Below are positions 2,784 to 47,633 of a DNA stretch of 64,000 nt, in pieces. The notes beneath the pieces are model-generated. The model had not been told where the DNA came from. It did no database searches and saw only the letters and a list, made by a program, of their open reading frames with translations. Location: positions 45,909 to 109,908 of IMG/VR virus record IMGVR_UViG_2576861548_000003, one strand, 5' to 3'. The position numbers and the translations under genes were made by a program. This DNA comes from a virus (Duplodnaviria > Caudoviricetes). Position 1 is the stretch's first letter. Each line of letters begins with the position of its first letter.

Positions 2784-2806
2784 TCAGAACATTAAAATTT
2801 AGAGCA

Positions 2807-3211
2807 ATGGACAATATTTTGAACTCAACAGTTGAAATGAGCCAAGCAGAACTTATTCTTCAGTTGGCCAAGACGAATGTGGAACAAGAGAAAAGGCTTA
2901 AAACTACAGAGCTAAGATTAAGCGCACTCGAAGAGGAAATAAAAAAGTTGTCTTCAAAGTGCATTGGTAACTATGGGTGCTCCACCATGTCATCATATAT
3001 CCAGAGGTACAAATTACCGATTTATGTGAGTGACATTTCGAAGCTTAGTAATGATGCTGCACGATTATGCAGAAAAAGGGGGTATCCGGTCAATAAGGTA
3101 AATATTGAACGTTTCGGTGCAATCAATGTTTATCCGGACTTCATTCTTCATGAACTACTGGATGACTATATAAGGACCACACAGCGTCTTAATGGAAGTA
3201 TAATAAGATAA
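2807..3211 (+). CDS. Antirepressor-like protein (coiled coil plus C-terminal DNA-binding-like domain)
   Basis: SQAELILQLAKTNVEQEKRL and ERFGAINVYP segments resemble phage antirepressor C-termini. Confidence 0.5.
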   Translation: MDNILNSTVEMSQAELILQLAKTNVEQEKRLKTTELRLSALEEEIKKLSSKCIGNYGCSTMSSYIQRYKLPIYVSDISKLSNDAARLCRKRGYPVNKVNIERFGAINVYPDFILHELLDDYIRTTQRLNGSIIR

Positions 3212-3230
3212 TAATACAAACTATAAAGCA

Positions 3231-3431
3231 ATGATTAAGGTAGAAATAAGCCAATACTTAGCAATGTTAAAGTCATTCACTGAATGCGCTCAATACAGAG
3301 CGGAGTGTTACCGGTTAAAAGCTGAAAACGAAAAGCTAAGATCTGAACTGTCGGATAGTTTAAAAGATTCTCGGTCTCCCCGTAACAAAATCGAATACTT
3401 CGATTACGGTAGCCGGATAGGAACTAACTAA
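3231..3431 (+). CDS. Hypothetical protein
   Basis: 66 aa, AAAGCAATG start context. Confidence 0.55.
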   Translation: MIKVEISQYLAMLKSFTECAQYRAECYRLKAENEKLRSELSDSLKDSRSPRNKIEYFDYGSRIGTN

Positions 3432-7816: not shown

Positions 7817-8800
7817 ATGTCGAGACCTAATAAGACAGGTTTGAGTTATTTCCCAATGGATGTTGATTTATTCCAAGACATACGAATAAGGAAACTAATC
7901 AAGTATCAGAGTGGCAAGGCTATAACAGTATATGCTCTCCTGCTATGTCTTATCTACCAGCGTGGGTACTACATGAGGTGGGATGAAGAGTTGCCCTTCA
8001 TTATATCGGAACAAACCGGGTTTGAAGAGGCGTATATACTGGAGGTCATCAGAAGCTGCATGACACTAGGGTTATTCTCCAAGAAACTGTATGATGACGA
8101 ACAAATCATTACGTCAAAAGGGATTCAAGAGCGATACCTGTATATATGTAAACTGCTCAAAAGAAGAGTGAGCATTACTGAATATTTGCTTATTGATGAA
8201 GAAAAGGAGCTTGTTACTTCTCAAGAAACCGGGGTTATTTCCGGAAAAACCCCGGTTATTTCCGAAGAAACTGCTTTAAATTCGGTGAAAATGCAACAAA
8301 AGAAAAGAAAGGAAAAGGAAATAAAAGAAATCTCTCTATTGAGAGATAAAGAAAAGTTTCCCCCTCCCGAGGTTGTAGACAAAACATTAAGCGAATGCTA
8401 TGATGAACTATCATGTGACAGAAGTTGGATTGAAATCGTAACGATGAATACACGTAATTCCGGTCATAAGGATTTTACGATAGACATGTTCGGAATGTAT
8501 TTAAAACGTTTTTTCGAGAAGCTCCAAAACGAGGGAGAGGTAAGAAAGTCTCCCAAGGATGCAAAATCGCATTTCTCCCGTTGGTTGAATATTGAACTGA
8601 AAAAGAAAGGCAATTATGAACCAAAACCAATTACCAACAACATCTACGAGCAGAAGCGAATTGATTCTGAGCGGAGAAAATCTAAACTCATGGCTGAGTT
8701 CGCAGAAGCGGACGCAAAATTCCTTGCAGAACAAGAAGCTAAACGAAAAGCAGTTGGCTTTATTGGAGAAATATCCGACACCTTCCCGGATGGCGGTTGA
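7817..8800 (+). CDS. Phage replication initiator (DUF4373/Lin1244-like N-terminal domain)
   Basis: MSRPNKTGLSYFPMDVD...ITSKGIQERY N-terminus, internal iterons, basic KKRKEKE linker; start 7817 preferred over 7652. Confidence 0.85.
   Translation: MSRPNKTGLSYFPMDVDLFQDIRIRKLIKYQSGKAITVYALLLCLIYQRGYYMRWDEELPFIISEQTGFEEAYILEVIRSCMTLGLFSKKLYDDEQIITSKGIQERYLYICKLLKRRVSITEYLLIDEEKELVTSQETGVISGKTPVISEETALNSVKMQQKKRKEKEIKEISLLRDKEKFPPPEVVDKTLSECYDELSCDRSWIEIVTMNTRNSGHKDFTIDMFGMYLKRFFEKLQNEGEVRKSPKDAKSHFSRWLNIELKKKGNYEPKPITNNIYEQKRIDSERRKSKLMAEFAEADAKFLAEQEAKRKAVGFIGEISDTFPDGG
8213..8296 (+). repeat. Four 21-bp iterons inside the rep gene (probable origin)
   Basis: gttacttctcaagaaaccggg / gttatttccggaaaaaccccg / gttatttccgaagaaactgct / ttaaattcggtgaaaatgcaa followed by an A-rich tract, as in lambda O. 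Confidence 0.75.
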
Positions 8801-9356: not shown

Positions 9357-9459
9357 TTAAAGATAAAGCCTTGTGAATAAAACGAGTAATGTTTGTTTAC
9401 AAGTGGAAAAATAAGTAACTTTATACCTGTAAATCAGAAATATATAAAATATAAGAGCA

Positions 9460-9603
9460 ATGAAAACAATTAGAAAATTAACTGAAAGGGAAGTGGTACT
9501 CAACAGGCTCACACAACCTATTCTTATGCCTGTTATTTACTCACTAAATTACAAAGTTAGTAACCAAACAGATGATAATTCAAGGTTATCCAGTAATTTG
9601 TAA
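9460..9603 (+). CDS. Small hypothetical protein (47 aa, MKTIRKLTE...)
   Basis: Read by hand; ATAAGAGCAATG start context downstream of a TAACTTTA promoter-like element. Confidence 0.45.
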   Translation: MKTIRKLTEREVVLNRLTQPILMPVIYSLNYKVSNQTDDNSRLSSNL

Positions 9604-15705: not shown

Positions 15706-15842
15706 TTGCTTGTTATTTAGTAAGTTAAACAAAGTTTAAGTAAAAGTTTTTAGATTGTTTTATTTTGGTTAACTCGTTGATAATGACTATCTTTACAATA
15801 CTAAAAGAAACCAATAATACTAATCATTAAAAGACAAGAGCA

Positions 15843-16493
15843 ATGAATACTTACCACAAATTCTGTCCAAATGTATTTTTAGCAAAGTGCGAAGAAAAGC
15901 ACGAAAGAGGTGAAGAAATTCTAGTTACCACTAGGTATGGCAAAGAAAACGAAAGCATAGTTTTCAATCTAATTTTTGAGAAAGACGGTTTTTACTATTA
16001 CTCCATCGTACGTGCTGACGGTTTTAACGTTCAGGAATGGGCTAAGCAAAGAGCGGAACGCAGACGTGAATGGGTTATATCGGCAGAACGTAAAAGTAAA
16101 GAGTACTTTGACAGGTCTAATAAAGATAGAGATTTTCTTTCACTTGGTGAACCTATCAAGATTGGTCACCATAGTGAAAAACGTCATAGAAAAGCAATAG
16201 AGGATGCTTGGAATAATACCGAAAAAGCTGTTGCATTCAGCGATAAGGCTTTAGAGCATGAAAGCAAAGCCGAATATTGGGACAAGCGCGCTAATACAAT
16301 CAATTTGTCTATGCCGGAAAGCATTGACTTCTACGAACACAAGTTGGAACAAGCGAAAGAATACCATGAAGGTGTAAAGTCTGGCAAATATCCGCGTGAA
16401 CATGCTTATACTCTTACTTATTCCAAGAAAGCAGTTAATGAAGCACAAAAGAATTACGAACTGGCTAAAAAGTTGTGGGGAGACGAACTATGA
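15843..16493 (+). CDS. DUF3560-domain protein
   Basis: GEPIKIGHHSEKRHR motif. Confidence 0.8.
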   Translation: MNTYHKFCPNVFLAKCEEKHERGEEILVTTRYGKENESIVFNLIFEKDGFYYYSIVRADGFNVQEWAKQRAERRREWVISAERKSKEYFDRSNKDRDFLSLGEPIKIGHHSEKRHRKAIEDAWNNTEKAVAFSDKALEHESKAEYWDKRANTINLSMPESIDFYEHKLEQAKEYHEGVKSGKYPREHAYTLTYSKKAVNEAQKNYELAKKLWGDEL

Positions 16494-17859: not shown

Positions 17860-18153
17860 ATGAGAGCAATGAAAAAGATAGAACAAATGACATCCGAACT
17901 TAACCGAGTATTGCATTCTAACACCTACCAATTCGAGATTGACACCGAAGATTTTGTTTTCGGTTTCAAGGAAACAATAAGAACGAGGACTAAGGATTTG
18001 GCAATGGCTATTAAGCTTGAACAAAAGGTAACAAGGGACTGCGGACGTTTCCTGTCCGACACCGTTAGAATCGTATCTGTAAGAATTTACAAAAACGGTG
18101 ATTTGAGAAAAGAAATTCATGCTGAAGAAATAACAGCATCATATAATGGATAA
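17860..18153 (+). CDS. Hypothetical protein
   Basis: AGAGCAATG start context (likely start 17869), own promoter-like element upstream. Confidence 0.6.
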   Translation: MRAMKKIEQMTSELNRVLHSNTYQFEIDTEDFVFGFKETIRTRTKDLAMAIKLEQKVTRDCGRFLSDTVRIVSVRIYKNGDLRKEIHAEEITASYNG

Positions 18154-18164
18154 AATATAGAGCA

Positions 18165-18593
18165 ATGAAAACATTGAAAAAATTAACAAGCAAAGAAAGC
18201 TTTGCCATCCTTAGAGAAATCGAAAGCAAGAAATGTCCTAATGGCGTTAAGTATTCAGAGTGGAGAGAGGAAAGAGATAGACTACAGACGGAAGCCATCA
18301 GAAATTTAGTTCCCGAAGTCGGGCTAGGTTGTACCGTATGTTACTATTCTGACAGGCGAGCAGCTACTGTAACCAAAGTTATTTCTCCATGCAAGATTGA
18401 GGTTACATTTAATCAAACGGAATGTATCGACTACTATGCTGGTGATTATAAGATTTTACCAGAACTTGAAGGTGGACCAAAGGTGTTCACTAAAAGGAGA
18501 AATGGCCGTTGGGTGGCAGATGGGCAAGCGTACAAGGACGGTGTTTTGCTTATGCTTCATTATCAAAGTCATTATATTGATCCACGTTTTTAG
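18165..18593 (+). CDS. Hypothetical protein
   Basis: 142 aa, TAGAGCAATG start context. Confidence 0.7.
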   Translation: MKTLKKLTSKESFAILREIESKKCPNGVKYSEWREERDRLQTEAIRNLVPEVGLGCTVCYYSDRRAATVTKVISPCKIEVTFNQTECIDYYAGDYKILPELEGGPKVFTKRRNGRWVADGQAYKDGVLLMLHYQSHYIDPRF

Positions 18594-18604
18594 CATTAAA
18601 AGCA

Positions 18605-18949
18605 ATGAAAGCAAATAAAATAATGTTCCTATACTATCCTTGTATAGTAATTGTATGTGAATCAATGGAAACCCCTAATTCCAAAGACCCGGAAACAAAC
18701 GATCTGAGGGAATATGCTAGAATAGTTAGATTTTCATATGAAACAAAATTTTTCCCTTATTTTGAATTTATCCCTGCTGGTTCAATTGAATGGACTAAGC
18801 ATGCAGATATGCTTAGCAAAGAACAAAGAGACAGCATAGAAAAACGTTCCCAACAATTGCGGGAAGAGGATAAAGAGCGGATTGATTATTTCAACAAACT
18901 AAAAGAAGCAAGTATAAAATCACATAACCAACATAATAATAAGCAATGA
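18605..18949 (+). CDS. Hypothetical protein
   Basis: 114 aa, AAAGCAATG start context. Confidence 0.6.
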   Translation: MKANKIMFLYYPCIVIVCESMETPNSKDPETNDLREYARIVRFSYETKFFPYFEFIPAGSIEWTKHADMLSKEQRDSIEKRSQQLREEDKERIDYFNKLKEASIKSHNQHNNKQ

Positions 18950-19131
18950 AAACAACTGTAAAAGTGTATTTAAGAGATGAACAAGGTAATGAAGACTACT
19001 TCATTACTCCTATTAACTTATCAGAGCAAGAAGCTCACAAGTACTATCTCGGTAACATCTTCAATATGGGGTGCGAAACAGATCACATGATGAAATGCTA
19101 CAAAGTTGAGACAATAAAATCATCAAATTAG
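18946..19131 (+). CDS. Hypothetical protein
   Basis: 61 aa, AAGCAATG start context. Confidence 0.6.
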   Translation: MKTTVKVYLRDEQGNEDYFITPINLSEQEAHKYYLGNIFNMGCETDHMMKCYKVETIKSSN

Positions 19132-19200
19132 ATAAATTTATGACTAAAAGTGATTGTTTTTACTTCATATTTTGTATTTTTACACCATAAAATTAAAGCA

Positions 19201-19611
19201 ATGAGGATTTACACAAGTTATTTCGGGAATTACAGAAAACTAGCAGCTGCAAACGTAAAAATGATATGTGTTGCGCTAGGGAAGCCAAGATTTTATAATG
19301 CACCTCAGATCATAGAGGTGGCACCAAGAAGATACATGTTGGATGATAAATGGACTTATGAAGAGTACACGAATATGTATTTGAATGATGTCCTTGCAAA
19401 AGTCAATCCGCAAGAATTGATTCAAACTATCCAGCGACTCAGTGAAGACAAAGACGTCGCTCTCTGCTGTTACGAAAAACCGGGTGATTTCTGCCATCGT
19501 CATATTTTGGCAAAATGGCTTACCGAAAAGACTGGCATTGAAATAACAGAGTTCGGAGTAGTTGAAAGGAAAGAACCTAAATACGAACAAGCAAGTTTGT
19601 TTGAGATATGA
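19201..19611 (+). CDS. DUF488-family protein
   Basis: MRIYTSYF...VALCCYEKPGDFCHRH. Confidence 0.8.
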   Translation: MRIYTSYFGNYRKLAAANVKMICVALGKPRFYNAPQIIEVAPRRYMLDDKWTYEEYTNMYLNDVLAKVNPQELIQTIQRLSEDKDVALCCYEKPGDFCHRHILAKWLTEKTGIEITEFGVVERKEPKYEQASLFEI

Positions 19612-20069: not shown

Positions 20070-20142
20070 GGGAATTTAGCAAAGATGGTCTATGCGTCGG
20101 ACTAAAAATCCGAAGAACAAGGTTCGAATCCTTGAGTTCCCA
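20070..20142 (+). tRNA. tRNA-Phe with AAA anticodon
   Basis: Acceptor GGGAATT/AGTTCCC, anticodon arm TCGGA-CTAAAAA-TCCGA, T-arm CAAGG-TTCGAAT-CCTTG. Confidence 0.8.
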
Positions 20143-20155
20143 CAGTCTTGTATCA

Positions 20156-20367: not shown

Positions 20368-20437
20368 GCGGAAATAGCTCATCGGTAGAGCGTTGGCATT
20401 CCAGCCAAAGAGTGGGGTTCGATTCCCTGTTTCCGCT
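20368..20437 (+). tRNA. Atypical tRNA-Gly(TCC)-like
   Basis: GCGGAAA/TTTCCGC+T73, D-arm GCTC/GAGC, T-loop TTCGATT; anticodon arm TTGGC-ATTCCA-GCCAA (6- or 8-nt loop). Confidence 0.7.
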
Positions 20438-20511
20438 CTAATGCCGTTAAACTCGGCTCGTTGATTGAGGTTGTGTAAAGTAAGCGACAAGGTTCGATTC
20501 CTTGCATTTAG
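20438..20511 (+). ncRNA. tRNA-like element without a normal anticodon loop
   Basis: Perfect T-arm CAAGG-TTCGATT-CCTTG, GCCG/CGGC hairpin, TCGTT/AGCGA stem around a 20-nt loop, imperfect acceptor CTAATG/CATTTAG. Confidence 0.4.
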
Positions 20512-25481: not shown

Positions 25482-25839
25482 AAAATACAGGTTGAATACA
25501 AGGCAAAAGAAAACATTGTTTCTAAAAGCCCTTGATGCAAGACTTCTTAATGTGACGAAAGCATGCGAGGCCGCAAGTATATGTCGTTCTCTTGCTTATA
25601 AATGGAGAGAAAATGACCCCGAGTTTAAAGCGAAATGGGAAGAGGTTGAAGAAGCGTTCAAAGACAAAATAGAAACGTGTATGTTCACAAAAGCTATTAC
25701 GGAACAGGACAATACTATGCTTATTTGGCTAAGTAAAACTAAGCTTCGTGATAGAGGCTACGTAGAAAAGATTGAACAGGATTTGAACGTGAACCCGTTT
25801 GAAAAACTTATGCAGGAATTGCCAGATGATGAAGAATGA
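25468..25839 (+). CDS. Terminase small subunit
   Basis: HTH-like NVTKACEAASICRSLAYKWRENDPEF, RDRGY; immediately upstream of TerL. Confidence 0.75.
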   Translation: MEKDRKYRLNTRQKKTLFLKALDARLLNVTKACEAASICRSLAYKWRENDPEFKAKWEEVEEAFKDKIETCMFTKAITEQDNTMLIWLSKTKLRDRGYVEKIEQDLNVNPFEKLMQELPDDEE

Positions 25840-27350
25840 CAATAGCAGATGAAAAATCTTTGCGGAAAATCAAATCATGGACAGAAGACTGGAATAGGTT
25901 TGTGCGTGATGCTCTTAAAGCTCGTTTGGATAAGGAGCAACAGGATATTATTTCATCTGTGCAGTACAATCCTATGACAGCTGTTGCATCGGGAACAGCT
26001 CGTGGTAAGGACTTCGTGGCGGCCTGTGCATCTTTGTGTTTCATGTATCTTACTCCTCGTTGGAAAGATGGGAAGTTGACTAAAAACACTAAAATTGCTA
26101 TGACAGCGCCTACCGCTCGTCAAGTACAAAATATTATGATTCCGGAAATCTCACGTTTATACAGGAATGCAGGTTTCCTTCCGGGAAGATTGTTGTCGTC
26201 AGGTATAAAGACTGATTACGAAGAGTGGTTCCTGACGGGGTTTAAGGCGGGTGATGATAACACCGAAGCATGGTCCGGTTTTCACGCTGTAAATACGATG
26301 TTTGTTGTTACCGAAGCTTCTGGTATTTCTGAATCAACGTATAACGCCATTGAAGGTAACTTACAAGGTAATTCTCGTTTGCTTATCGTGTTTAATCCGA
26401 ATGTTACTACCGGTTATGCCGCACGCGCTATGAAGTCGGAGCGTTTTGCAAAATTTCGTTTGGATTCTCTTAATGCGGAGAATGTGGTATCTAAGAAAGC
26501 TGTAATTCCAGGACAGGTAAACTACGAGTGGGTTAAGGATAAAGTTGAGAATTGGTGTTCTCTGTTACAGAAAGCAGATTTCAATGAGGGAGAGGGAGAT
26601 TTTACATGGGAAGGTAAGTTATATCGTCCAAATGATCTTTTCCGTGTCAAGGTCAGAGGTATGTTCCCTAAAGTTTCCGAGGATGTACTTATACCTTATG
26701 AATGGATAGAAATAGCAAACAGAAATTGGCAGGAATTACAGGCAAGCGGCTTCATTCCATCCAAATCGTGCAAGTTAGGTGTTGACGTGGCTGGTATGGG
26801 ACGCGACAATAGTGTACTTTGTCCTCGATATGGTAACTATGTGGCGCAATTTGAAGTACATCAATCCGCTGGTCGAGCAGACCATATGCATGTAGTCGGT
26901 ATGGCGATACCCTATTTGAAGAAGAGGGGAGCTAAAGCATTTATTGATACGATAGGAGAGGGGGCAGGTGTTTATTCCCGCTTGTTAGAAGAAGAATTTA
27001 CAAATGCTTTTTCATGTAAATATTCAGAAGGTGCGGATGGATTGCATGATATTACCGGAGAATATGAATTTGCCAATATGCGCGCATATTTGTATTGGGC
27101 TTTGCGCGACTGGCTCAATCCTAAAAATGGATTTGGTGCAGCTTTACCTCCATGTGACCAGTTAATGGAAGAAGCGACTGAAACTAAATGGAAGTTTCTC
27201 AGTAATGGAAAGATTATCATTGAGGCTAAAGAAGACATAAAAAAACGTATCAAGCGTTCTCCTGACTATATGGATGCATTAGCGAATACATTTTATCCTA
27301 GGGATTACAGCTTTATTAGCGATGAAGAGCTGCTCAAAGATTTTTTGTAG
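25836..27350 (+). CDS. Terminase large subunit
   Basis: Walker A-like SGTARGKD, VVTEASG, FNPN coupling motif, LGVDVAG nuclease motif, SPDYMDAL. Confidence 0.92.
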   Translation: MTIADEKSLRKIKSWTEDWNRFVRDALKARLDKEQQDIISSVQYNPMTAVASGTARGKDFVAACASLCFMYLTPRWKDGKLTKNTKIAMTAPTARQVQNIMIPEISRLYRNAGFLPGRLLSSGIKTDYEEWFLTGFKAGDDNTEAWSGFHAVNTMFVVTEASGISESTYNAIEGNLQGNSRLLIVFNPNVTTGYAARAMKSERFAKFRLDSLNAENVVSKKAVIPGQVNYEWVKDKVENWCSLLQKADFNEGEGDFTWEGKLYRPNDLFRVKVRGMFPKVSEDVLIPYEWIEIANRNWQELQASGFIPSKSCKLGVDVAGMGRDNSVLCPRYGNYVAQFEVHQSAGRADHMHVVGMAIPYLKKRGAKAFIDTIGEGAGVYSRLLEEEFTNAFSCKYSEGADGLHDITGEYEFANMRAYLYWALRDWLNPKNGFGAALPPCDQLMEEATETKWKFLSNGKIIIEAKEDIKKRIKRSPDYMDALANTFYPRDYSFISDEELLKDFL

Positions 27351-27377
27351 TTGTGTTTCTTTTAGTACCTTTGTAAC

Positions 27378-27446
27378 CGAAAACACTTCTTTTGTGTTTT
27401 CATTGCTCTTATGTGCACTGGCTTGTGAAAGTCGGTGCCATTTTTG
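27378..27446 (+). ncRNA. Candidate trans-acting antisense sRNA
   Basis: -7 box TACCTTTG (27366-27373), 5' hairpin GAAAACAC/GTGTTTTC, seed TGTTTTCATTGCTCTTAT, terminator GCACTGGCT-TGTGAA-AGTCGGTGC-CATTTTT. Confidence 0.65.
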
Positions 27447-27588
27447 TTCTATGTCAAAAGTTAAATCTTTGATTTAGAGAGGTTTGTTGTAAAAATAAAA
27501 GTGCAAATGTTTGGATAACTCGTTGATAATTATTATCTTTACAATACAAAAAGAAACCAATAATACTAACAATTAAAAGACAAGGGCA

Positions 27589-27771
27589 ATGAAAGCAACA
27601 ACAATCCAACAGAGAATAATAGAAAAGTTCATCATGTCAGAGTTTGTACAAGGTAACTTAGATACAAAAGAACAGGTTAGCTGTATGCTTATCCTAATTC
27701 AAAAGAAGCTGAATATGTCAGTAGAGCAAGCAAGTGACTTTATGAGAAAATCAATTGGTATTAACGCTTAA
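27589..27771 (+). CDS. Hypothetical protein (insert between terL and portal)
   Basis: 60 aa behind a duplicated promoter/leader. Confidence 0.55.
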   Translation: MKATTIQQRIIEKFIMSEFVQGNLDTKEQVSCMLILIQKKLNMSVEQASDFMRKSIGINA

Positions 27772-27782
27772 TACACACGATT

Positions 27783-28100
27783 ATGAAAGTATATGATATA
27801 AATGGCAATGTAGTAGCAGAAGGCTATTTAGTTCCCAATCCCAATTTCATTCCTAAAGGTGAATACAAAGAAACTGAACTGGATTATCAAAAGAAGCAAG
27901 CTGATATGTTGATAACTTCAATTGATGGCAGTTTCTATGAAATCAGTTTGCCTAAAAATGCTACACTTCGCCAGAAGATAAGCAAAGATATAAAAGGATA
28001 TGGCAGAAACGTAAGAAGGTATAATGAAGATATAATTCATGTAACAGAAAAAGTCCTAAAGATTTTGCAAACTAAATATACTATAATGTGTGACTTTTAA
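27783..28100 (+). CDS. Hypothetical protein
   Basis: 105-aa ORF. Confidence 0.6.
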   Translation: MKVYDINGNVVAEGYLVPNPNFIPKGEYKETELDYQKKQADMLITSIDGSFYEISLPKNATLRQKISKDIKGYGRNVRRYNEDIIHVTEKVLKILQTKYTIMCDF

Positions 28101-28108
28101 AAATAGAT

Positions 28109-28378
28109 ATGACACAAGATCGACTTGATATATTTGAAAAAGTACTCCTTCTTTATGGAGAATACGTCTTACTCAATCTTTATTCTTCTGCTAAAGTTAT
28201 GGAAAGGTACGAAGATTGTGCCATTATGCGAGATTTGATGAAAAGGCACAATATTGATGAACGTAATGAAATCCAGGATTGGCAAGCTGAATTATGGCGT
28301 TGTGGATATTCTGGTGAAATTGCTGGCATTAACTTTCCATATTATATGCATGAAGCTGTAAAAATGGTAGGTTATTAG
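28109..28378 (+). CDS. Hypothetical protein
   Basis: 89-aa ORF. Confidence 0.6.
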   Translation: MTQDRLDIFEKVLLLYGEYVLLNLYSSAKVMERYEDCAIMRDLMKRHNIDERNEIQDWQAELWRCGYSGEIAGINFPYYMHEAVKMVGY

Positions 28379-28403
28379 ATAAATATTATTATTTTTTTTG
28401 TTT

Positions 28404-28443
28404 AAAAGTGGCATAGTGAATGTCACTTTTGTTATATTTGCAC
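28404..28443 (+). promoter_or_regulatory. Operator-promoter unit upstream of portal
   Basis: AAAAGTGGC-atagtgaat-GTCACTTTT-gt-TATATTTG. Confidence 0.7.
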
Positions 28444-28563
28444 CATAGCATCTGATGCTAACGTATCCTTTCACGTTCTCGGGTATACGTATTGTTTTAT
28501 CCGGTCCCTTTTGGAAGGTATTTATTGTTGTTCAACTAATTACCGTATGAAGATGTACGGAAC

Positions 28564-29970
28564 ATGCCCATGGATGAAATAACCGCTATATTAGACAGTA
28601 CCCGACCTGTTGATAATATTATCAACGACTTAAAAGAGAAATCAGTCTGTGTCCCCTCATGGGATAAACTTATCAAAGACTATGAACCAACGATGCACGA
28701 CATAGTTACTGATACTGTTACTCGTCAAAACAAGGTAAGGTCTGACGGTACGGTAGAGCAAGCTTCACGTATCTATGTTGGTCTTGAAAAGCTTCTAACG
28801 AAGCGAATAACAGAGTTCATGTATTCTATTCCGGTAAAACGTATATATCACAATATAGAGGGTAATCCTACCAGACAACAAATAGCAAAAGCGATCGAAG
28901 CAATATACAAGTATGCTCGTATTGATAGTGAGAATATTAAGCGAGGTAATGCTTACTTTGCATCATGTGAAGTGTTCACTATTTGGTACACAGTTGAGAG
29001 CCCCAATACTCTATATGGTTTTACAAGTAGATATAAACTAAAATGTAAGACCTACTCACCAATGGACGGTGTTAAGCTATATCCTTTACTTGATGAACTT
29101 GGTGATATGATCGCAATGTCTTTTGAATACACAAAAAAGGTCAAAAATGAACAAATTACTTTTTTTGAGACATATACAGCAAACATGCATTATAAGTGGA
29201 AACAGGAGGGTAGCGGATGGGAATTAGTCAAATCAGAACCGGTTGCTATTCTAAAAATACCAGGAGTCTACGCCTATTGTTCGGTACCTATTTATCACGG
29301 GCTTTCCTATATCAGAAAAGAAATAGAATATACCCTTTCACGCAATAGCGATGTAATCGCGTATAATTCCGCTCCTATACTAAAAATAGCTGGTGGGATA
29401 AAGGGTAGTGAGAATAAAGGAGAAAGTCGTAGAGTTTATCGCGTAGAACAAAATGGGGATGTAGCCTATGTTTCGTGGGCACAATCTATCGAGGCATTAA
29501 AATACCATGTTGACACTTTAGTCAAATTGTTTTGGTCACAATCACAAATGCCAGATATCTCTTTTGAAAACATGAAATCTCTCGGTAATATCGGATTTGA
29601 TGCAAGGCAGACTTTACTTACTGACGCTCATTTAAAGGTTGGAGACGAAAGCGGAGCGTGGATAGAAGCATTTGAACGCGAATGTAGTGTAATTAAGGCC
29701 TTCTTGAAAATGATGAATGTTACGTGGAAAGGTGAAGTAGATAATGTTGAAGTTGAGCATGTTATTACTCCGTTTATCCAAAATGATGAAAAGTCAGAAA
29801 TAGAGAAGTGGGTTACAGCCAGTGGGGGGAAAGCGGTTGTCAGTCAATTAGAGGCCATCAAGAACTTGGGCATTTCTACCGATCCGCAAGAGACTCTCTC
29901 TCAAATTCAAAAAGAAGATGAAACTGCTTCTAGAATCAGAGTGAGCAACATATTTGAACAATCAGAATAA
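28564..29970 (+). CDS. Portal protein (SPP1 gp6-like)
   Basis: 468 aa after TerL; QSQMPDISFENM..GNIG motif. Confidence 0.85.
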   Translation: MPMDEITAILDSTRPVDNIINDLKEKSVCVPSWDKLIKDYEPTMHDIVTDTVTRQNKVRSDGTVEQASRIYVGLEKLLTKRITEFMYSIPVKRIYHNIEGNPTRQQIAKAIEAIYKYARIDSENIKRGNAYFASCEVFTIWYTVESPNTLYGFTSRYKLKCKTYSPMDGVKLYPLLDELGDMIAMSFEYTKKVKNEQITFFETYTANMHYKWKQEGSGWELVKSEPVAILKIPGVYAYCSVPIYHGLSYIRKEIEYTLSRNSDVIAYNSAPILKIAGGIKGSENKGESRRVYRVEQNGDVAYVSWAQSIEALKYHVDTLVKLFWSQSQMPDISFENMKSLGNIGFDARQTLLTDAHLKVGDESGAWIEAFERECSVIKAFLKMMNVTWKGEVDNVEVEHVITPFIQNDEKSEIEKWVTASGGKAVVSQLEAIKNLGISTDPQETLSQIQKEDETASRIRVSNIFEQSE

Positions 29971-31445: not shown

Positions 31446-33062
31446 ATGGCAAAACCTAAAATTCCAAATCAGAAAAAGAAGTATCAAGAACTTAACAGTC
31501 GGATAAATAGGTATGTCGTTCTTGTTGAGCAGATATACGACACACTGAATTTGGACGCCGCCAAAGCTGTTTCACGTACGGAATATTCCTCTGATAGCAA
31601 TAAACCGTTTAAATGGTCCGATTACCCTCAAACTAAAAAACAAATTGACGACATACAAAGGCATTTCGTAGAAGATATAAACGCAATTATCTATCGTGGT
31701 ACGACCGAAGAATGGAAAAATAGTAATGAAGCACAGGATTTGATAGCAAACAGAGTATTAAAAGCATATAACGCACAAGTTGATAGAGAGAAATATAAAG
31801 TTTTGTATCAAGTAAATTCTGATGCTCTGAAAGCATTTCAAAACCGGAAGGATAAAGGATTCAATATATCGGCAAAACTCTGGCAGCAATCTATGATCTA
31901 CAAAGAGGAATTGGAGGCTGCGATCTCATGCGCTATTCAAAAAGGAACCAGCGCTGTTACGTTGAGTAAGCAAATATCTCAATACTTACTTGATTTTCCA
32001 TCACTGCAAAAAGATTATAAAGACAGATACGGAAGTGCTGAACATATACAAGATTGTGAATACAGATCTATCCGCCTAGCCCGTTCGGAGATAAACATGG
32101 CTTATCGAACATCCGAAAATGAACGTTGGAAGCAAATGGATTTCGTAGTAGGATATGAAATTAAATTAAGTTCCTCTCATCACAACCGTATGCCACATGG
32201 AGATATTTGTGATACACTTGCCGGAAAATATCCTAAAGATTTCAGATGGACAGGATGGCACCCGAACGACTTATGTTATAAAGTCCCTATCCTCAAAACA
32301 GAAGAAGAATTCTGGGAATGGGATGGACTGAGCGATGTTTCTACAGAAAGTATTAATGAAGTAAAGGATGTTCCTGACGAATTTAAAAAATGGGTACTTG
32401 ACAACCAACAAAAGATTGAGAAAGCGCGGGAAAGAAACACCTTACCTTATTTTTTGAGAGATAACAAATCAATTGTTCAGAATATAAATACTGAAAATTC
32501 AGCTAAAGAGCTTGTTAATCGTGCTTCTTTAGTTGGGAAGGAGGTACAAAGTTTAGCAGAATCCATCGCTAAAAATAATAAAGGATTTGTAACTCCAATC
32601 AATTACAAAAGCATTTCATCAATAACAAGAAAAGCGACAACGGAGGGTATAACTCCATACGATATAAAAGACGCAGTTAGGACGACAATCATAGTTCCCA
32701 AATCACAAATAGATCAAGTCTTGAACGAACTATCTGAAAACGATTCGTTTGTGCGACTGAAAAGACAAAAGCCGGAATCATTTATGGGATATAGTGGCAA
32801 TATAGTTAATATTCAAACATCTAACGGATTAATTGCTGAGATTCAAGTTAATACAGACCGTATGATTTATGCCAAAGAAAAACCGGAAGACGCAAAACGA
32901 ATTCTTGGAGAAAAACGTTGGAAGGATATACAAAATCAAACAGGTATGAAGGGGGGGCTGGGGCATAAATATTATGAAGAATGGCGAGTATTAGACAAAG
33001 CTGATAAAAAGGCGCAAAAAATAGTTGAAAAATCAATCGAATATTATAGTCATTTCCAATAA
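31446..33062 (+). CDS. MuF-family minor head protein with C-terminal RelA/SpoT-type alarmone synthetase (Apk2-like) toxin domain
   Basis: MuF: RLARSEINMAY..CDTLAG.YPK.F.WTGWHP; C-terminal YKSISSITRK, IKDAVR, GYSG, AEIQVNT, GHKYYE. Confidence 0.85.
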   Translation: MAKPKIPNQKKKYQELNSRINRYVVLVEQIYDTLNLDAAKAVSRTEYSSDSNKPFKWSDYPQTKKQIDDIQRHFVEDINAIIYRGTTEEWKNSNEAQDLIANRVLKAYNAQVDREKYKVLYQVNSDALKAFQNRKDKGFNISAKLWQQSMIYKEELEAAISCAIQKGTSAVTLSKQISQYLLDFPSLQKDYKDRYGSAEHIQDCEYRSIRLARSEINMAYRTSENERWKQMDFVVGYEIKLSSSHHNRMPHGDICDTLAGKYPKDFRWTGWHPNDLCYKVPILKTEEEFWEWDGLSDVSTESINEVKDVPDEFKKWVLDNQQKIEKARERNTLPYFLRDNKSIVQNINTENSAKELVNRASLVGKEVQSLAESIAKNNKGFVTPINYKSISSITRKATTEGITPYDIKDAVRTTIIVPKSQIDQVLNELSENDSFVRLKRQKPESFMGYSGNIVNIQTSNGLIAEIQVNTDRMIYAKEKPEDAKRILGEKRWKDIQNQTGMKGGLGHKYYEEWRVLDKADKKAQKIVEKSIEYYSHFQ

Positions 33063-33086
33063 AAATCACTATCTTTACATATAAAA

Positions 33087-33314
33087 ATGAACCAGAAGGA
33101 ATTATATAATAAATTACAGTCAGGCGAAACGGTTTATTTACTTGACGATTTTGAAGAAGCTGTTATCCGTTTATATTTCGATAACGGCCAAACAAAATCA
33201 TATATAAAACATCATGGACGTAATGAAATAGAAATTCCGCAATCCGATGATACAGTGTGTGATATAATTCTTGGAGGAAAAGAGATTTCAAAATCAGAAT
33301 ATGACAAATACTAG
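33087..33314 (+). CDS. Probable immunity protein for the MuF toxin (IapK-like)
   Basis: 75 aa between toxin and HD hydrolase; C-terminal EISKSEYDKY. Confidence 0.6.
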   Translation: MNQKELYNKLQSGETVYLLDDFEEAVIRLYFDNGQTKSYIKHHGRNEIEIPQSDDTVCDIILGGKEISKSEYDKY

Positions 33315-33732
33315 TACTTTATTAGAAAAAGCTCTTCAAATAGCAACTGATGCGCATCTTTATCAAGTTGACAAAGCTGGGGTACCTTATATTTTCCATC
33401 CTATCCGTGTCTCAAACAGATGTTCTACTGATGACGAAAGGATTGTTGCTTTGCTGCACGATACAATAGAAGATACCGAAGTTACCGCTGAATATTTACT
33501 TATGGAAGGGTTTCCTCGTAATATAGTAGATGCTATACTTTCTGTCACTCGCAACGAGGATGAAAACTATGAAGATTTCATAAAACGCTCTAGGCTTAAT
33601 CCTATAGGAAGACAAGTAAAACTACATGATTTAGAAGACAACATGGATATAACACGTTTGAATGAACTTACAGAAAAGGATCTTTACAGATTGAACAAAT
33701 ACATAAAAGCATATAAATATCTTAAAGAATAA
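33301..33732 (+). CDS. HD-domain small alarmone hydrolase (Aph1/Mesh1-like)
   Basis: AH..QVDKAGVPYIFHP..ALLHDTIEDT..VKLHDLEDN. Confidence 0.9.
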   Translation: MTNTSTLLEKALQIATDAHLYQVDKAGVPYIFHPIRVSNRCSTDDERIVALLHDTIEDTEVTAEYLLMEGFPRNIVDAILSVTRNEDENYEDFIKRSRLNPIGRQVKLHDLEDNMDITRLNELTEKDLYRLNKYIKAYKYLKE

Positions 33733-33818
33733 TCGCTGATGTACAATTACATTCAGTTTCACGGCACGAAGTACAAGATTACTCTCGTGCCGTGCGTTTA
33801 TTATGATAGTTTAACATT

Positions 33819-33856
33819 AAAAGTGGCGTTGTTTATGTCACTTTTGCTACTTTTGT
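33819..33856 (+). promoter_or_regulatory. Operator-promoter unit upstream of the capsid operon
   Basis: AAAAGTGGC-gttgtttat-GTCACTTTT-gc-TACTTTTG. Confidence 0.7.
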
Positions 33857-34024
33857 ATCAGAAGCGTATGAAGATGTACGCCACAGAACTTGTCGTGTTG
33901 TGATTTGCTTCAATTTAGCACGATTGAACGAAACTCATTGCTCTAATGTTTAGTAAAGTTCTAAGCGAATAGTCTGCTGGCATACGTGCTACGCAGACTA
34001 TTTTTGTAATTAAAACATTGTACA

Positions 34025-34744
34025 ATGGACAGAAAACAACAAGTATTGTTGAGATTGAAACCGAAAGTGAAGGCATTCGGGTTCAATTCAAGGGAATTAA
34101 AGGGTATTGCTGCCAAGATTGCCGATAACCTTACTTCCGCAGATGATGCCTCAGATGAAGACGTAAATGCAGAAATTGACAAAGAGATTGACTCCGCATT
34201 ACGTTACTTGCCTTTCGGCCAGTCACAAGCCAATCGCTTGCTTGATGAATGGAAGAAAAATCACCCTGAAACAGATGACGACGACAACGATGACGATGAT
34301 GACGACGACGGAGCTTCGGATAATCAAAGACGTCAAGCTGGTTCAAACACCAAAAATCCCAAAAACAAAGGAAAGAATGATGATGCTCCGGAATGGGCTA
34401 AAGGTTTGGTTCAGACAGTACAAACACTGAATGACGAAATCGCAGCATTGAAAGGTGAAAAAGTTACCACTACACGTAGAGAGAAACTTGAAACCCTTTT
34501 AAAAGATGCTGGTACATTCGGAACTCGCACATTGAAATCCTTCAATAAAATGAAGTTTGAAAATGATGAAGAGTTTGAAGAATTCTATTCCGAAGTTGAG
34601 GAAGATTTAAAATCTTACAACCAAGAACGTGCCGACGCAGGACTATCTAGTTTGGGGAATCCTCCAGGTGCAGGAAGTAAGAAACAAGAAAAAAATGAAG
34701 TATTAACCGATGAAGAGGTTATAGCAATTGCTAAAGGCCTTTAA
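34025..34744 (+). CDS. Capsid scaffolding protein
   Basis: Acidic, coiled coil, APEWAK motif, position before capsid genes. Confidence 0.7.
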   Translation: MDRKQQVLLRLKPKVKAFGFNSRELKGIAAKIADNLTSADDASDEDVNAEIDKEIDSALRYLPFGQSQANRLLDEWKKNHPETDDDDNDDDDDDDGASDNQRRQAGSNTKNPKNKGKNDDAPEWAKGLVQTVQTLNDEIAALKGEKVTTTRREKLETLLKDAGTFGTRTLKSFNKMKFENDEEFEEFYSEVEEDLKSYNQERADAGLSSLGNPPGAGSKKQEKNEVLTDEEVIAIAKGL

Positions 34745-34761
34745 TCAAAAGTAAAATTAAA

Positions 34762-35163
34762 ATGGGCGCAAAAGCTGATTTAGTAAACGAACAGGAGACG
34801 ATTTTAACCGGAATGGATTCGATTGTTATTCGTAACTATTTGGGCGGAATTATGAATGGGCGGACATTAGACATGACTGGATTTAAGCAGTCTGTAATTA
34901 AAGCCGGTCATATTGTTATCCGCGATACAGAGAACGATACCTATAAGCCAATGCCTGTTAACTCAGCAGGCACAGCTTACGAATCATTGCCATCTAATCA
35001 TGAATACGTTGGTGTTGTTGTTTGTTCAAAACCTGCCGACAAGCCATTCGTTGGTATTATGTATGCTGGTGAAGTAAATGATGTGGCGAGTCCTTATCCT
35101 ATTGACAGCATTAAGGCTGCATTAAAAACGGCATTGCCGCAATTGGCTTTTTTACACGATTAA
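34762..35163 (+). CDS. Head decoration protein
   Basis: 133 aa between scaffold and MCP; IKAGHIV. Confidence 0.6.
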   Translation: MGAKADLVNEQETILTGMDSIVIRNYLGGIMNGRTLDMTGFKQSVIKAGHIVIRDTENDTYKPMPVNSAGTAYESLPSNHEYVGVVVCSKPADKPFVGIMYAGEVNDVASPYPIDSIKAALKTALPQLAFLHD

Positions 35164-38695: not shown

Positions 38696-38766
38696 GCGGA
38701 GATGGTGTAATGGTTGCATATATATCATCCAGATATCAGGTTACGGTTCAAGTCCGTATCTCCGCT
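38696..38766 (+). tRNA. Second atypical tRNA-Gly(TCC)-like gene
   Basis: GCGGAGA/TCTCCGC+T73, D-arm GTGT/GCAT, T-arm TACGG-TTCAAGT-CCGTA, anticodon loop CATCCAG (A instead of U33). Confidence 0.7.
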
Positions 38767-38843
38767 CTGTTTTTTGAGAATCTGATTTGTTGTTCATAAT
38801 TTAATGTCGGTTGTCTGTGAAGATAGCCGATAAAAAATAATTG

Positions 38844-39565: not shown

Positions 39566-39710
39566 CATAAATGTATGCAATAACTGGGTTTCTTCGGAAA
39601 TAACCCCAGTTTCTTCCGAAATAACCCCAGTTTCTTCGAAAATAATACGGTATTATTCCGTGATTAATCACTGATTATTCCGTGATCACTACGTCAACAC
39701 TACGTGATTT
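39566..39710. repeat. Intergenic ~21-bp-period array containing inverted copies of the rep iterons plus other short repeats
   Basis: ataaccccagtttcttc.gaa x3; GTTTCTTCGGAAATAACC (39588-39605) is the exact reverse complement of 8254-8271; then ttattccgtgat x2 and cactacgt x2. Confidence 0.85.
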
Positions 39711-42854: not shown

Positions 42855-42958
42855 GCTTTTATTGTTGTATAATAATATATGCACAAATATATTTTATATA
42901 ACAATATAAACAAAATTAAAGATAAAAAAATAATCTATTAAATATGTTTTTGCTATGT

Positions 42959-42995
42959 ATGTGGCATTTAATACGTCACTTTTATTATCTTTGCA
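42959..42995 (+). promoter_or_regulatory. Operator-promoter unit upstream of tape measure
   Basis: atGTGGC-atttaatac-GTCACTTTT-at-TATCTTTG. Confidence 0.65.
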
Positions 42996-43039
42996 ATGCC
43001 GTGTGATGTTGCACGGAACTATTTCTATCGAAAAGACTT

Positions 43040-47546: not shown

Positions 47547-47556
47547 TTTTAATTAT

Positions 47557-47594: not shown

Positions 47595-47633
47595 TTCAAT
47601 AAAAGCATTGTGTGAAGGCGCACAAAAACCAAT

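What the first reader, a model, noticed from the sequence alone, without database searches (positions are those of the whole stretch)
27366..27446. One small RNA antisense to the shared start-codon motif of about ten accessory genes
Seen: a self-contained unit (TACCTTTG promoter, 5' hairpin, terminator) whose central TGTTTTCATTGCTCTTAT (27395-27412) is the exact 18-nt reverse complement of ATAAGAGCAATGAAAACA at 9451-9468. It also matches start regions at 18159 (15 nt), 17863 (13), 18942 (13), 15836 (12), 18601 (10) and 2801 (9), the start of the gene at 27589 (16 with two G-U pairs) and, more weakly, those at 3231 and 19201. Inference: the phage tags a set of early/accessory genes with an AGAGCAAUG initiation 'barcode' and silences them all with one trans-acting sRNA, during lysogeny or at the early-late switch.
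Basis: partly seen in the sequence, partly recalled or inferred. Interest (0 to 1): 0.82.

Follow-up and report, generated by a model that had tools for sequence, protein, structure and literature searches.

The report
Phage sRNA targeting shared start-codon tag
A gut Bacteroidales prophage carries a small, strongly conserved RNA gene whose exposed stretch is the mirror image of a sequence tag sitting on the start codons of a dozen of its own early genes, which suggests one RNA (in fact two) can switch that whole gene set off together.

Summary
27366-27448 is a self-contained unit just 3' of terL: Bacteroidetes-type -7 box, 8-bp 5' hairpin, single-stranded AUUGCUCUUAUGU, and a terminator.

Evidence that it is a real RNA gene:
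- It is present in 80 of 80 related IMG/VR loci.
- The seed is invariant (one C>U), while both helices covary.
- The unit survives, from the -7 box onward, in a non-terL context.

The start-codon tag (A)AGAGCAATGAAA marks non-homologous early-region ORFs in every relative carrying the RNA. It is not a general Bacteroidales start context.

New here: a second, unrelated RNA displays the same anti-tag core, CAUUGCUC. It is a terminated leader behind a late-type promoter at 33862-34008. It occurs in all 8 tag-bearing phages examined and in 0 of 3 tag-less relatives. In one lineage its seed changed CU>AC, and the tags of several genes changed AG>GT to match.

Trans RNA-RNA pairing at start codons is therefore well supported. 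Repression, timing and expression are inferred; no usable RNA-seq evidence was obtained. "One sRNA" is incomplete, and only two targets pair over 18 nt or more.

The parts
27344..27347 (+). TTTG, candidate -33 element of the sRNA promoter; it abuts the terL stop codon (27348-27350)
   Evidence: Sequence. The consensus (TTTG around -33, TAnnTTTG at -7) comes from passages of PMC7366714. It reads TTTTTA in the L069 group.
27366..27373 (+). -7 promoter box TACCTTTG (TAnnTTTG)
   Evidence: Kept as TACCTTTG or TATCTTTG in all 20 distinct variants although the flanks differ. In L169, L196, L198 and L209, identity with the window begins at this box, in a non-terL context.
27379..27401 (+). 5' hairpin GAAAACAC/GUGUUUUC; the transcript start is inferred to lie near 27377-27381
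   Evidence: In the L069 group the hairpin is replaced by GAAGACUG...CAGUUUUC plus an inner stem. That keeps pairing through double changes. The alignment register hides part of this.
27394..27414 (+). Seed, antisense to positions -11 to +10 of the tagged start regions. 27402-27414 (AUUGCUCUUAUGU) is single-stranded; 27394-27401 is the 3' arm of the hairpin
   Evidence: The 18-nt core is invariant in 79 of 80 loci. L063 has one C>T, which still allows a G-U pair.
27415..27448 (+). Intrinsic terminator: 10-bp stem, GUGA loop, then CAUUUUUGUU
   Evidence: Three stem pairs carry compensatory double changes, and 98.2% of this helix's cells are paired. Two G-U pairs exist only on the + strand.
9449..9603 (+). 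Tagged start region plus 47-aa ORF (ATG 9460); 18 nt exact complement, 20 with G-U
   Evidence: Cofold ddG is -20.4 kcal/mol. The same ORF carries the exact tag in G002 and G005 and in L185 and L205.
18159..18593 (+). Tagged start plus 142-aa ORF (ATG 18165); 15 nt
   Evidence: Orthologues in five other phages carry the tag. The G006 orthologue reads TTAGCAATG.
17863..18153 (+). Tagged start plus 94-aa ORF (ATG 17869); 13 nt
18942..19131 (+). Tagged start plus 61-aa ORF (ATG 18946); 13 nt
15836..16493 (+). Tagged start plus 216-aa DUF3560 gene (ATG 15843); 12 nt. It sits behind an 84-nt promoter/leader repeat shared with 27510-27593
   Evidence: (D7, 92%)
18601..18949 (+). Tagged start plus 114-aa ORF (ATG 18605); 10 nt, 13 with G-U
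2801..3211 (+). Tagged start plus 134-aa ORF (ATG 2807); 9 nt to the flagged sRNA and 11 nt (UUAGAGCAAUG) to the second RNA
   Evidence: The G006 orthologue reads GTAGCAATG.
27580..27771 (+). Tagged start plus 60-aa ORF (ATG 27589), the gene next to the sRNA; 16 nt with two G-U. In relatives this slot holds different ORFs
3227..3431 (+). Weak tag (AAGCAATG, 8 nt) plus 66-aa ORF
   Evidence: A G002 orthologue has AGAGCAATG.
19197..19611 (+). Weak tag (8 nt) plus 136-aa DUF488 gene
   Evidence: Orthologues in G003 and G005 have AAGAGCAATG.
33799..33860 (+). Late-type promoter: palindrome AAAAGTG...CACTTTT plus TACTTTTG at 33848-33855. It is one of four copies of a 62-nt family
   Evidence: D4: 28384, 33799, 42937, 47536
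33862..34008 (+). Second anti-tag RNA ('type 2'), a terminated leader. It has hairpin GCGUAUGAAGAUGUACGC, stem GAACUU/AAGUUC enclosing CUCAUUGCUCUAA (core 33936-33943), and a terminator at 33968-34005. The 239-aa gene at 34025 follows

Best explanation
27366-27448 encodes a roughly 68-nt trans-acting antisense RNA with its own host-type promoter and terminator.

Proposed mechanism:
- Its single-stranded AUUGCUCUUAUGU nucleates on the tag AAGAGCAAU, at positions -7 to +2 of the tagged mRNAs.
- Pairing can then extend into the 3' arm of the 5' hairpin and cover the start codon (-11 to +10).
- In the Shine-Dalgarno-less mRNAs of Bacteroidales this should block initiation and repress translation.

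Primary targets are two small early ORFs, of 59 aa (outside the window) and 47 aa (ATG 9460), with 18-22-nt duplexes. About ten further early or accessory genes carry shorter versions of the tag.

The sRNA is one of two anti-tag RNAs of this phage. The second is a terminated leader made from a late-type promoter at 33862-34008, which shows the core CAUUGCUC in an unpaired region. Together they would shut down the tagged early genes. The late leader would act at the early-to-late switch. The stand-alone unit, built like a moron, may also act from the prophage, in lysogeny maintenance or immunity to related phages.

Shown: gene anatomy, conservation, structure covariation, complementarity, tag/anti-tag co-occurrence, and co-variation for the second RNA.

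Inferred: transcription, pairing in vivo, direction of the effect, and timing.
For: 1. RNA gene.
- The element is present in 80 of 80 loci whose TerL is 84-100% identical. The 18-nt seed is exact in 79; one locus has C>T.
- Across 17 distinct rows, 98.0% of cells are paired. Four pairs have double changes, and 0 of 500 shuffles reached either value. Slid controls gave 43-52% paired.
- The strand is asymmetric: -26.2 kcal/mol on + against -14.5 on -.
- The divergent L069 form keeps the plan (hairpin, 13 unpaired seed nt, terminator) with a different hairpin sequence.
- In 4 of 51 sRNA-type loci the unit sits in another context, with identity starting at the -7 box.
- The minus-strand 13-codon ORF is not kept: the loop length varies by 1-2 nt.

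2. The tag is real and phage-specific.
- Five relatives have 5-9 sense hits each and one sRNA each. The reversed-pattern control gave 0-2.
- The hits open non-homologous ORFs.
- Exact 18-mers head at least 6 protein families among 40 target-type matches; at least one of the 40 (L164) is the antisense of an sRNA copy.
- Whole Bacteroidales genomes of 3-4.6 Mb have 9-20 hits against 7-13 for the control.

3. Tag and anti-tag go together.
- Phages with 4-10 AGCAATG gene starts (G000-G007) all have the type-2 RNA, 8 of 8.
- Relatives with 0-1 such starts (G008-G010) have neither RNA, 0 of 3.
- Type 2 was found in 68 of 69 further loci and 5 of 5 further contigs.
- CATTGCTC is kept in 13 of 15 distinct sequences while the loop flanks vary.

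4. Co-variation.
- The G006 seed is CAUUGCUAC where other phages have CAUUGCUCU.
- Its tagged starts have T at -5 in 6 of 9, against 1 of 54 in the other seven phages (Fisher p 8e-6).
- The -6/-5 dinucleotide is GT in 3 of 9 there, and AG in 39 of 54 elsewhere.
- The change is seen in orthologues of three separate gene families.

5. The seed changes that do occur are C>U, which keep G-U pairing: L063 in the flagged sRNA and L275/L357 in type 2.

6. Precedent: the Bacteroides sRNA GibS represses targets through an extended single-stranded seed that pairs with translation initiation regions (PMC7366714, passages).
Against: - No expression evidence. All runs found are Logan contigs, and none of the four laid gave a contig spanning the unit.
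- The flagged sRNA's seed never varies with its targets, so the co-variation evidence belongs to the second RNA and rests on one lineage (G006).
- The seven comparison phages are related, so the Fisher counts are not independent events.
- The tag is kept in 35 of 80 loci that lack the flagged sRNA, so this sRNA is dispensable for the tag.
- Only 2 of 135 start regions give a ddG of -20 kcal/mol or lower.
- The count at -10 or lower is 10, against 0-9 in 20 seed shuffles. One non-tagged start also scores -16.4.
- Eight of the 18 complementary nucleotides lie in the closed hairpin arm.
- Some tag similarity is simple duplication: the 84-nt D7 repeat, and D10 and D20.
- A G at -3 is not the favoured A of Bacteroidetes starts. 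The tag may therefore have its own, unknown role in initiation.
Confidence: 0.6

Rival explanations
1. Narrow antisense regulator. The sRNA controls only the one or two small ORFs with near-perfect duplexes: the 59-aa ORF at G000 36762 and the 47-aa ORF at 9460. This would resemble P22 sar or lambda OOP, but encoded in trans. The 8-15-nt matches to other genes would then be by-products of a tag that serves the second (late leader) RNA or some other function.
For: - Two start regions stand apart at -23.7 and -20.4 kcal/mol. The rest lie at -14 or weaker and overlap the shuffled-seed range.
- The minus strand of the sRNA matches the 59-aa gene's start over about 27 of 29 nt with a 2-nt gap. This suggests origin by inverted duplication of that gene's 5' end.
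- The exact 18-mer recurs mostly on a few ORF families.
Against: - Exact 18-mers head at least 6 unrelated ORF families across relatives.
- G004 has no exact target, yet keeps the sRNA.
- The seed equals the consensus of all the tags rather than of one gene.
Confidence: 0.2
2. No separate RNA. The stretch is only the terL 3' UTR and terminator, and the complementarity is a relic of an inverted gene fragment without function.
For: - It lies directly after the terL stop in 47 of 51 sRNA-type loci.
- In L103 (TerL 76%) a truncated copy without a -7 box or 5' hairpin follows the stop codon directly.
Against: - The seed is invariant over 80 loci while the loop and the stems change.
- The -7 box is kept amid divergent flanks.
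- The unit is retained from the -7 box onward in a non-terL context.
- A relic would not stay exact. The second, unrelated RNA shows that the anti-tag sequence is under selection.
Confidence: 0.07
3. The shared sequence is a double-stranded DNA site for a phage protein. Orientation would then be irrelevant, and the two inverted copies would simply be further sites.
For: A DNA site reads the same in either orientation, and nothing tested here measures RNA directly.
Against: - All sense copies are locked in register to start codons on the coding strand.
- The only two intergenic inverted copies fall in unpaired parts of structures that covary as RNA.
- The seed variants seen are C>U, neutral for G-U pairing but not for a DNA site.
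- In G006 the change in the inverted copy is the complement of the change in the sense copies. That would also fit a DNA site, so this point does not discriminate.
Confidence: 0.05
4. The tag is mainly a recombination or regulatory cassette boundary at which accessory ORFs are swapped, and the anti-tag RNAs are secondary.
For: - The slot next to the sRNA holds different ORFs behind the same leader and tag in G000, G001, G002 and G005.
- Longer shared leaders exist (D7, D10, D20).
- An RNA contig of run X8 joins the same leader to other sequence (tables 7 and 8).
Against: - This does not explain two conserved antisense copies in structured RNAs, nor the co-variation.
- It is compatible with the main reading rather than exclusive of it.
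Confidence: 0.08

Closest known systems
P1/P7 c4 antisense RNA (immunity RNA)
   Same: It is phage-encoded, acts in trans on the phage's own mRNA, and pairs around the ribosome-binding site to block translation. Its function depends on displaying the complementary bases in unpaired or loop regions (PMC12197685, passages).
   Different: c4 acts on one transcript (ant). That it is processed from the operon it controls is recalled, not from a call. Here there is a stand-alone promoter-terminator unit and a tag spread over a dozen unrelated genes. No Rfam family matched.
T4 RegB endoribonuclease and RegA translational repressor
   Same: Both give coordinate post-transcriptional shut-off of many early genes through a short motif in their translation initiation regions. 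RegB uses GGAG sites. RegA competes with ribosomes on about 30 mRNAs (PMC3014915, passages).
   Different: The T4 effectors are proteins. Here the recogniser is RNA, and the motif includes the start codon itself.
GibS, a trans-encoded sRNA of Bacteroides thetaiotaomicron
   Same: The host is in the same order. It has its own start site and an intrinsic terminator. An extended, conserved single-stranded seed pairs with translation initiation regions of Shine-Dalgarno-less mRNAs and represses them (PMC7366714, passages).
   Different: GibS is chromosomal and has two metabolic targets. There is no sequence relation, since no Rfam hit was found.
Lambda OOP, P22 sar and BTP1 STnc6030 antisense RNAs
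   Same: They are small phage RNAs that control the phage's own genes or exclude superinfecting phage by base pairing (PMC12197685, passages).
   Different: The review calls these antisense RNAs. That each is cis-encoded opposite its single target is recalled. Here the targets lie 8-37 kb away and are many.
Short terminated leader RNAs of late or immunity operons (lambda 6S RNA from pR'-tR'; P4 CI RNA). These are recalled, not from a call
   Same: The second RNA (33862-34008) is a promoter-proximal leader that ends at a strong terminator ahead of late genes. Like P4 CI, it carries a sequence complementary to other phage transcripts.
   Different: No antiterminator is identified here. The complementarity is to start codons of many early genes, not to sites within its own operon.

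Membership tests
Canonical intergenic trans-acting sRNA (criteria used for Bacteroides in PMC7366714: own start site, intrinsic terminator, read coverage) | Own promoter and primary 5' end | tested here: inconclusive
   A TAnnTTTG box is conserved in all 20 distinct variants, and the unit is retained from that box in a non-terL context. The 5' end itself was not observed.
Canonical intergenic trans-acting sRNA | Rho-independent terminator at the 3' end | tested here: met
   A 10-bp stem plus a U-tract. Three pairs have compensatory changes.
Canonical intergenic trans-acting sRNA | Detectable transcript | not testable with these tools
   Only assembled contigs of RNA runs were on offer. None of the four laid spans the unit.
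Canonical intergenic trans-acting sRNA | Conserved, accessible seed complementary to distant mRNAs | tested here: met
   The seed is exact in 79 of 80 loci. Thirteen nt are unpaired in both the window form and the L069 form. Complementarity to start regions 8-37 kb away is shown.
Canonical intergenic trans-acting sRNA | Regulatory effect on the targets | not testable with these tools
   Needs reporters or a mutant phage.
Cis-encoded antisense RNA (OOP, sar type) | Encoded opposite its target gene | tested here: not met
   The opposite strand at 27366-27448 holds only a 13-codon frame that is not conserved. The targets lie elsewhere.
Any described RNA family (Rfam 15, which should include the P1 c4 family; that inclusion is recalled) | Score at or above a family's gathering threshold | tested here: not met
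   Only two tRNAs passed in the whole window. In 27300-27520 the best hit was snoZ278 at 15.7 bits against a threshold of 36.
Plain 3' UTR or terminator of terL | Always physically joined to terL, with no sequence constraint beyond the stem | tested here: not met
   Four of 51 copies lie in another context. The unpaired seed is more conserved than the stems.

The most novel reading that the evidence does not exclude
An RNA-only counterpart of T4 RegA/RegB. This phage lineage would tag a set of about 13 early genes at the start codon. It would shut them off with two unrelated anti-tag RNAs: one made from a late promoter as a terminated leader (the early-to-late switch), and one a stand-alone unit expressed from the prophage. 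Because tag and seeds are shared across the clade, the prophage RNA would also give sequence-programmed immunity against superinfecting relatives. Tag and seed would co-evolve, as seen in G006.
Probability: 0.35. Interest if true: 0.88.

Novelty: new variant of a known kind. Interest (0 to 1): 0.8.

Why it matters
Phage antisense RNAs known so far mostly control one gene. Coordinate shut-off of early genes is known from proteins, such as T4 RegA and RegB.

A start-codon tag read by small RNAs would be a compact, programmable way to regulate many unrelated genes at once. It would work in a phylum that lacks Shine-Dalgarno-led initiation and Hfq.

Practical consequences:
- It would give a direct handle on the almost unknown post-transcriptional biology of gut Bacteroidales phages.
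- It would give a rule for spotting early or accessory genes in uncultured relatives.
- It would offer a candidate portable tag-plus-sRNA knock-down tool for Bacteroides.

The comparative evidence makes the hypothesis testable with a handful of reporter constructs. That evidence is two scaffolds with one seed, and seed/tag co-variation.

Tried and rejected
- **RNA evidence.** The look-up of sequencing runs listed 23 runs, all kept as Logan contigs. I laid X23, X22, X21 (size-fractionated libraries) and X8.
  - X23 gave three short pieces at 29331-29480.
  - X22 and X21 gave none.
  - X8 gave pieces at 27510-27771 and 28208-29970, plus a 21-nt minus-strand piece at 27395-27415 that belongs to a contig of a related tagged gene.
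  - Nothing spans the unit. This is no evidence either way.
- **Cultured relatives.** tblastn of TerL against 50,697 phage records gave nothing above 31% identity. blastn of 26800-28200 hit only the 60-aa gene region in three B. fragilis phages at 67-69%.
- **Species-representative genomes.** The TerL scan found 17 relatives at 58-76% identity. Model R1 found no further copy in 150 other genomes of G006's family, among those searched. An R1 hit in G007 contig 18 is a host terminator with a similar loop and no seed.
- **Energies.** RNAduplex energies proved too noisy in this AT-rich DNA. I replaced them with register-fixed matches and cofold ddG.
- **Target functions.**
  - PHROGs and Pfam name only DUF3560, DUF488, DUF1351, a weak DUF5446 hit, and a LuxR/GerE-type regulator.
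  - The 59-aa and 47-aa primary targets have no family.
  - The protein atlas gave only unnamed viral clusters.
- **G006-like phages.** A search for more, to replicate the co-variation, failed. There was no exact match to its loop and no TerL closer than 79%.
- **L275.** Its variant seed could not be matched to longer tags, because leading N are ignored by the pattern tool.
- **Minus-strand peptide.** Rejected. The frame is 13 codons, and the loop length varies.
- **Literature.** Searches listed no paper on a Bacteroides phage sRNA or on a start-codon tag. The review PMC12197685 has 0 occurrences of "Bacteroides". I read passages only, and supplements are closed.
Full report
**Setting.** The window is bases 45909-109908 of a 109,908-bp IMG/VR provirus record.
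- The phage of interest runs from an integrase and CI-like repressor (G000 32843-35147, minus strand).
- It continues through a rightward early region: a LuxR-type regulator, RecT, an HNH endonuclease, a YqaJ exonuclease, DUF1351, replication genes and many small ORFs.
- Then come terL (window 25836-27350), portal and tail genes.
- Promoter motifs and relatives place it in Bacteroidales. TerL relatives lie in Bacteroides, Parabacteroides, Prevotella, Paludibacter and Dysgonomonas MAGs.
- No cultured phage has a TerL above 31% identity.

**Observation.**
- The 18-mer at 27395-27412 is the exact reverse complement of 9451-9468. Seven sites match with up to 3 mismatches, against 0.21 expected.
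- The ten match lengths are reproduced in register with ATG codons that open ORFs.
- The unit has TTTG (27344-27347), an 18-nt spacer, TACCTTTG (27366-27373), an 8-bp hairpin (27379-27401), 13 unpaired nucleotides, and a terminator (27415-27438 plus a U-tract).
- TAnnTTTG at -7 and TTTG near -33 is the published Bacteroides promoter consensus (PMC7366714, passages).
- Upstream of the window the record holds an even better target, the 59-aa ORF at G000 36762: 19 nt exact and 22 with G-U.

**Is it an RNA gene?** The comparative evidence says yes.
- TerL-anchored retrieval gave 80 related viral loci at 84-100% identity. All 80 carry the element after terL.
- The 18-nt seed is exact in 79. L063 has one C>T, which would still pair with G.
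- Around the fixed seed the sequence changes in ways that keep structure.
  - The terminator occurs as GCAC/GUGC, GCGC/GCGC, GUGC/GCAC and ACGCC/GGCGU.
  - The whole terminator hairpin is inverted in L068.
  - A divergent group replaces the 5' hairpin by a longer one, GAAGACUG...CAGUUUUC.
- On 17 distinct rows, 98.0% of cells pair, 4 pairs show double changes, and 0 of 500 shuffles reach either figure. Slid partners pair 43-52%. MAFFT misregisters three pairs of the divergent hairpin, so its covariation is seen in the fold rather than in that count.
- The + strand folds far better than the - strand, and its two G-U pairs would be A-C on the other strand.
- The -7 box is kept (TACCTTTG or TATCTTTG) although its surroundings differ.
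- Among the first 80 loci returned for the exact seed, I classified 51 matches as sRNA-type. Of these, 47 follow the terL end. Four (L169, L196, L198, L209) lie after an iteron-like region instead, and there identity with the window begins at the -7 box.
- That argues for a self-contained transcription unit rather than a terL 3' UTR.
- No Rfam family matches.

**The tag.**
- In five fully fetched relatives the 18-mer (up to 3 mismatches) occurs 5-9 times in the sense orientation and once as the sRNA. The reversed-pattern control gives 0-2.
- The sense copies head ORFs that are mostly unrelated to each other, and the set differs between phages.
- Exact 18-mers head at least six protein families among 40 target-type matches. 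At least one of those 40 (L164) is really the antisense of an sRNA copy with a variant terminator.
- Whole Bacteroidales genomes have only 9-20 hits, near the control level, so this is not the host's usual start context. It also has G, not the favoured A, at -3.
- In the window all tagged genes lie upstream of terL, except the gene next to the sRNA. None is in the structural region.
- The named targets are DUF3560, DUF488, DUF1351 and a LuxR-type regulator. The rest, including the two best targets, have no family.

**How strong is the pairing?**
- Cofold ddG over 135 start regions puts the 59-aa ORF (-23.7 kcal/mol) and the 9460 ORF (-20.4) far ahead.
- Eight more lie between -10 and -16.4. 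Seven of these are tagged. The eighth is the untagged CI-like 89-aa gene.
- Twenty shuffles of the unpaired seed gave 0-9 regions at -10 or lower, with minima of -9.3 to -15.4.
- The regulon reading for the second tier therefore rests on register and conservation more than on energy.
- Half of the complementarity (+3 to +10) must displace the 5' hairpin arm.

**A second anti-tag RNA.** I looked at relatives that keep the tag but lack the sRNA.
- Of 80 loci related to the Parabacteroides prophage L105, 44 have the standard sRNA, one has a variant, and 35 have none.
- In those relatives I found another promoter-terminator unit that shows CAUUGCUC in a loop.
- The window has it too, at 33862-34008. 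It lies behind one of four copies of a palindrome-bearing late-type promoter (D4). It has a small GAAG-loop hairpin, a stem enclosing ...ACUCAUUGCUCUAAUG..., and a 15-bp terminator. The 239-aa gene at 34025 follows 20 nt later.
- RNAalifold on nine copies gives 29 pairs, three of them with double changes.
- A covariance model (R2) finds the unit in G000-G007, in 5 of 5 further contigs, and in 68 of 69 further loci. It does not find it in the three relatives without tags, whose whole genomes were searched.
- AGCAATG opens 4-10 called genes in G000-G007 and 0-1 in G008-G010.
- Among 15 distinct sequences:
  - 13 keep CATTGCTC while the loop flanks vary;
  - one has CATTGTTT, which is G-U compatible;
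  - one type (7 loci) has lost the seed, but those phages carry the flagged sRNA.
- Every tagged phage examined thus has at least one anti-tag RNA.

**Co-variation.**
- G006 (an uncultured Bacteroides MAG; TerL 76%) has the type-2 seed CAUUGCUAC instead of CAUUGCUCU.
- Its tagged gene starts have T at -5 in 6 of 9, against 1 of 54 in the other seven phages (Fisher p 8e-6).
- GT at -6/-5, the exact complement of the new seed, occurs in 3 of 9. Elsewhere AG occurs in 39 of 54.
- The change is visible in orthologues of three different families: the 142-aa ORF, the 134-aa ORF and the LuxR-type regulator. A fourth family kept AG.
- This is one lineage, and the comparison phages are related. It is still parallel change at several unlinked genes matched by the complementary change in the RNA.
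- The same phage's copy of the flagged sRNA is truncated and promoterless.

**Mechanism.**
- Shown: two structured, conserved RNAs expose the complement of a start-codon tag, and tag and anti-tag co-occur and co-vary.
- Inferred: the RNAs pair with the tagged start regions and block initiation, as GibS does in B. thetaiotaomicron.
- Inferred: the late-promoter leader would deliver this at the early-to-late switch, functionally like T4 RegA and RegB (PMC3014915).
- Inferred: the flagged unit has a plain host-type promoter and a moron-like layout between late genes. It may also be made in the lysogen, where it could damp leaky early genes or incoming relatives. Compare c4 and STnc6030 (PMC12197685).
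- Nothing here measures RNA. The only runs available were contigs, and they gave no cover of the unit.

**Verdict.**
- The closest known systems are phage antisense immunity RNAs (c4) and protein-based early shut-off (RegA/RegB). I found none with a start-codon tag shared by many unrelated genes and read by two RNAs (searches; passages only).
- I rate it a new variant of a known kind, of high interest, with the mechanism at 0.6.

Noticed in passing
window 33897-33934: A 33-nt insert inside the second anti-tag RNA, directly 5' of its seed, resembles the 47-nt Bacteroidetes CRISPR repeat Rfam RF01362 (28.6 bits; gathering 41; E 0.004). It is present in 8 of 68 copies, those closest to the window. 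It is a candidate solitary-repeat RNA anti-CRISPR or scaRNA-like element; compare bioRxiv 10.64898/2026.06.01.729453 (abstract and passages). Another variant (L329-L332) has a different GUUGUG...CACAAC insert.
   Followed up: partly
window 28384-28445, 33799-33860, 42937-42998, 47536-47597: Four copies of a 62-nt promoter family lie ahead of the portal, the 34025 gene, the 1360-aa gene and the 2002-aa gene. Each has the palindrome AAAGTG...CACTTT overlapping the -33 region, plus TAnnTTTG. They look like late promoters with an operator. The leader I examined (33862-34008) starts with a covarying GAAG-loop hairpin.
   Followed up: partly
window 15764-15847 and 27510-27593: An 84-nt promoter/leader repeat (92% identical) ends in the tag and drives two unrelated genes. 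In relatives the slot after the sRNA holds different ORFs behind the same leader, which suggests cassette exchange at the leader.
   Followed up: partly
L169:600-1250 (also L196, L198, L209): The flagged sRNA unit lies in a non-terL context, after iteron-like repeats. About 300 nt upstream is an inverted partial copy (seed plus the start of the terminator).
   Followed up: partly
L068:4515-4597: The terminator hairpin of the sRNA is exactly inverted relative to all other copies. The stem is kept.
   Followed up: no
G000 1-30000 (outside the window): The first 30 kb of the record looks like a second, unrelated prophage in tandem. It has its own large terminase-sized, portal-sized and tail-sized ORFs, and a GC of 0.39-0.42 against 0.33-0.38 in the next 20 kb.
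   Followed up: no
window 20368-20438 and 20070-20143: ARAGORN calls a tRNA with an undetermined two-base anticodon (tc) and a tRNA-Phe (aaa). A tRNA-Gly (tcc) lies at 38696-38767.
   Followed up: no
window 8201-8285 and 39586-39667: Iteron-like repeats inside the replication gene region recur in inverted orientation after the tail genes (arms 71 nt long, 76% complementary).
   Followed up: no
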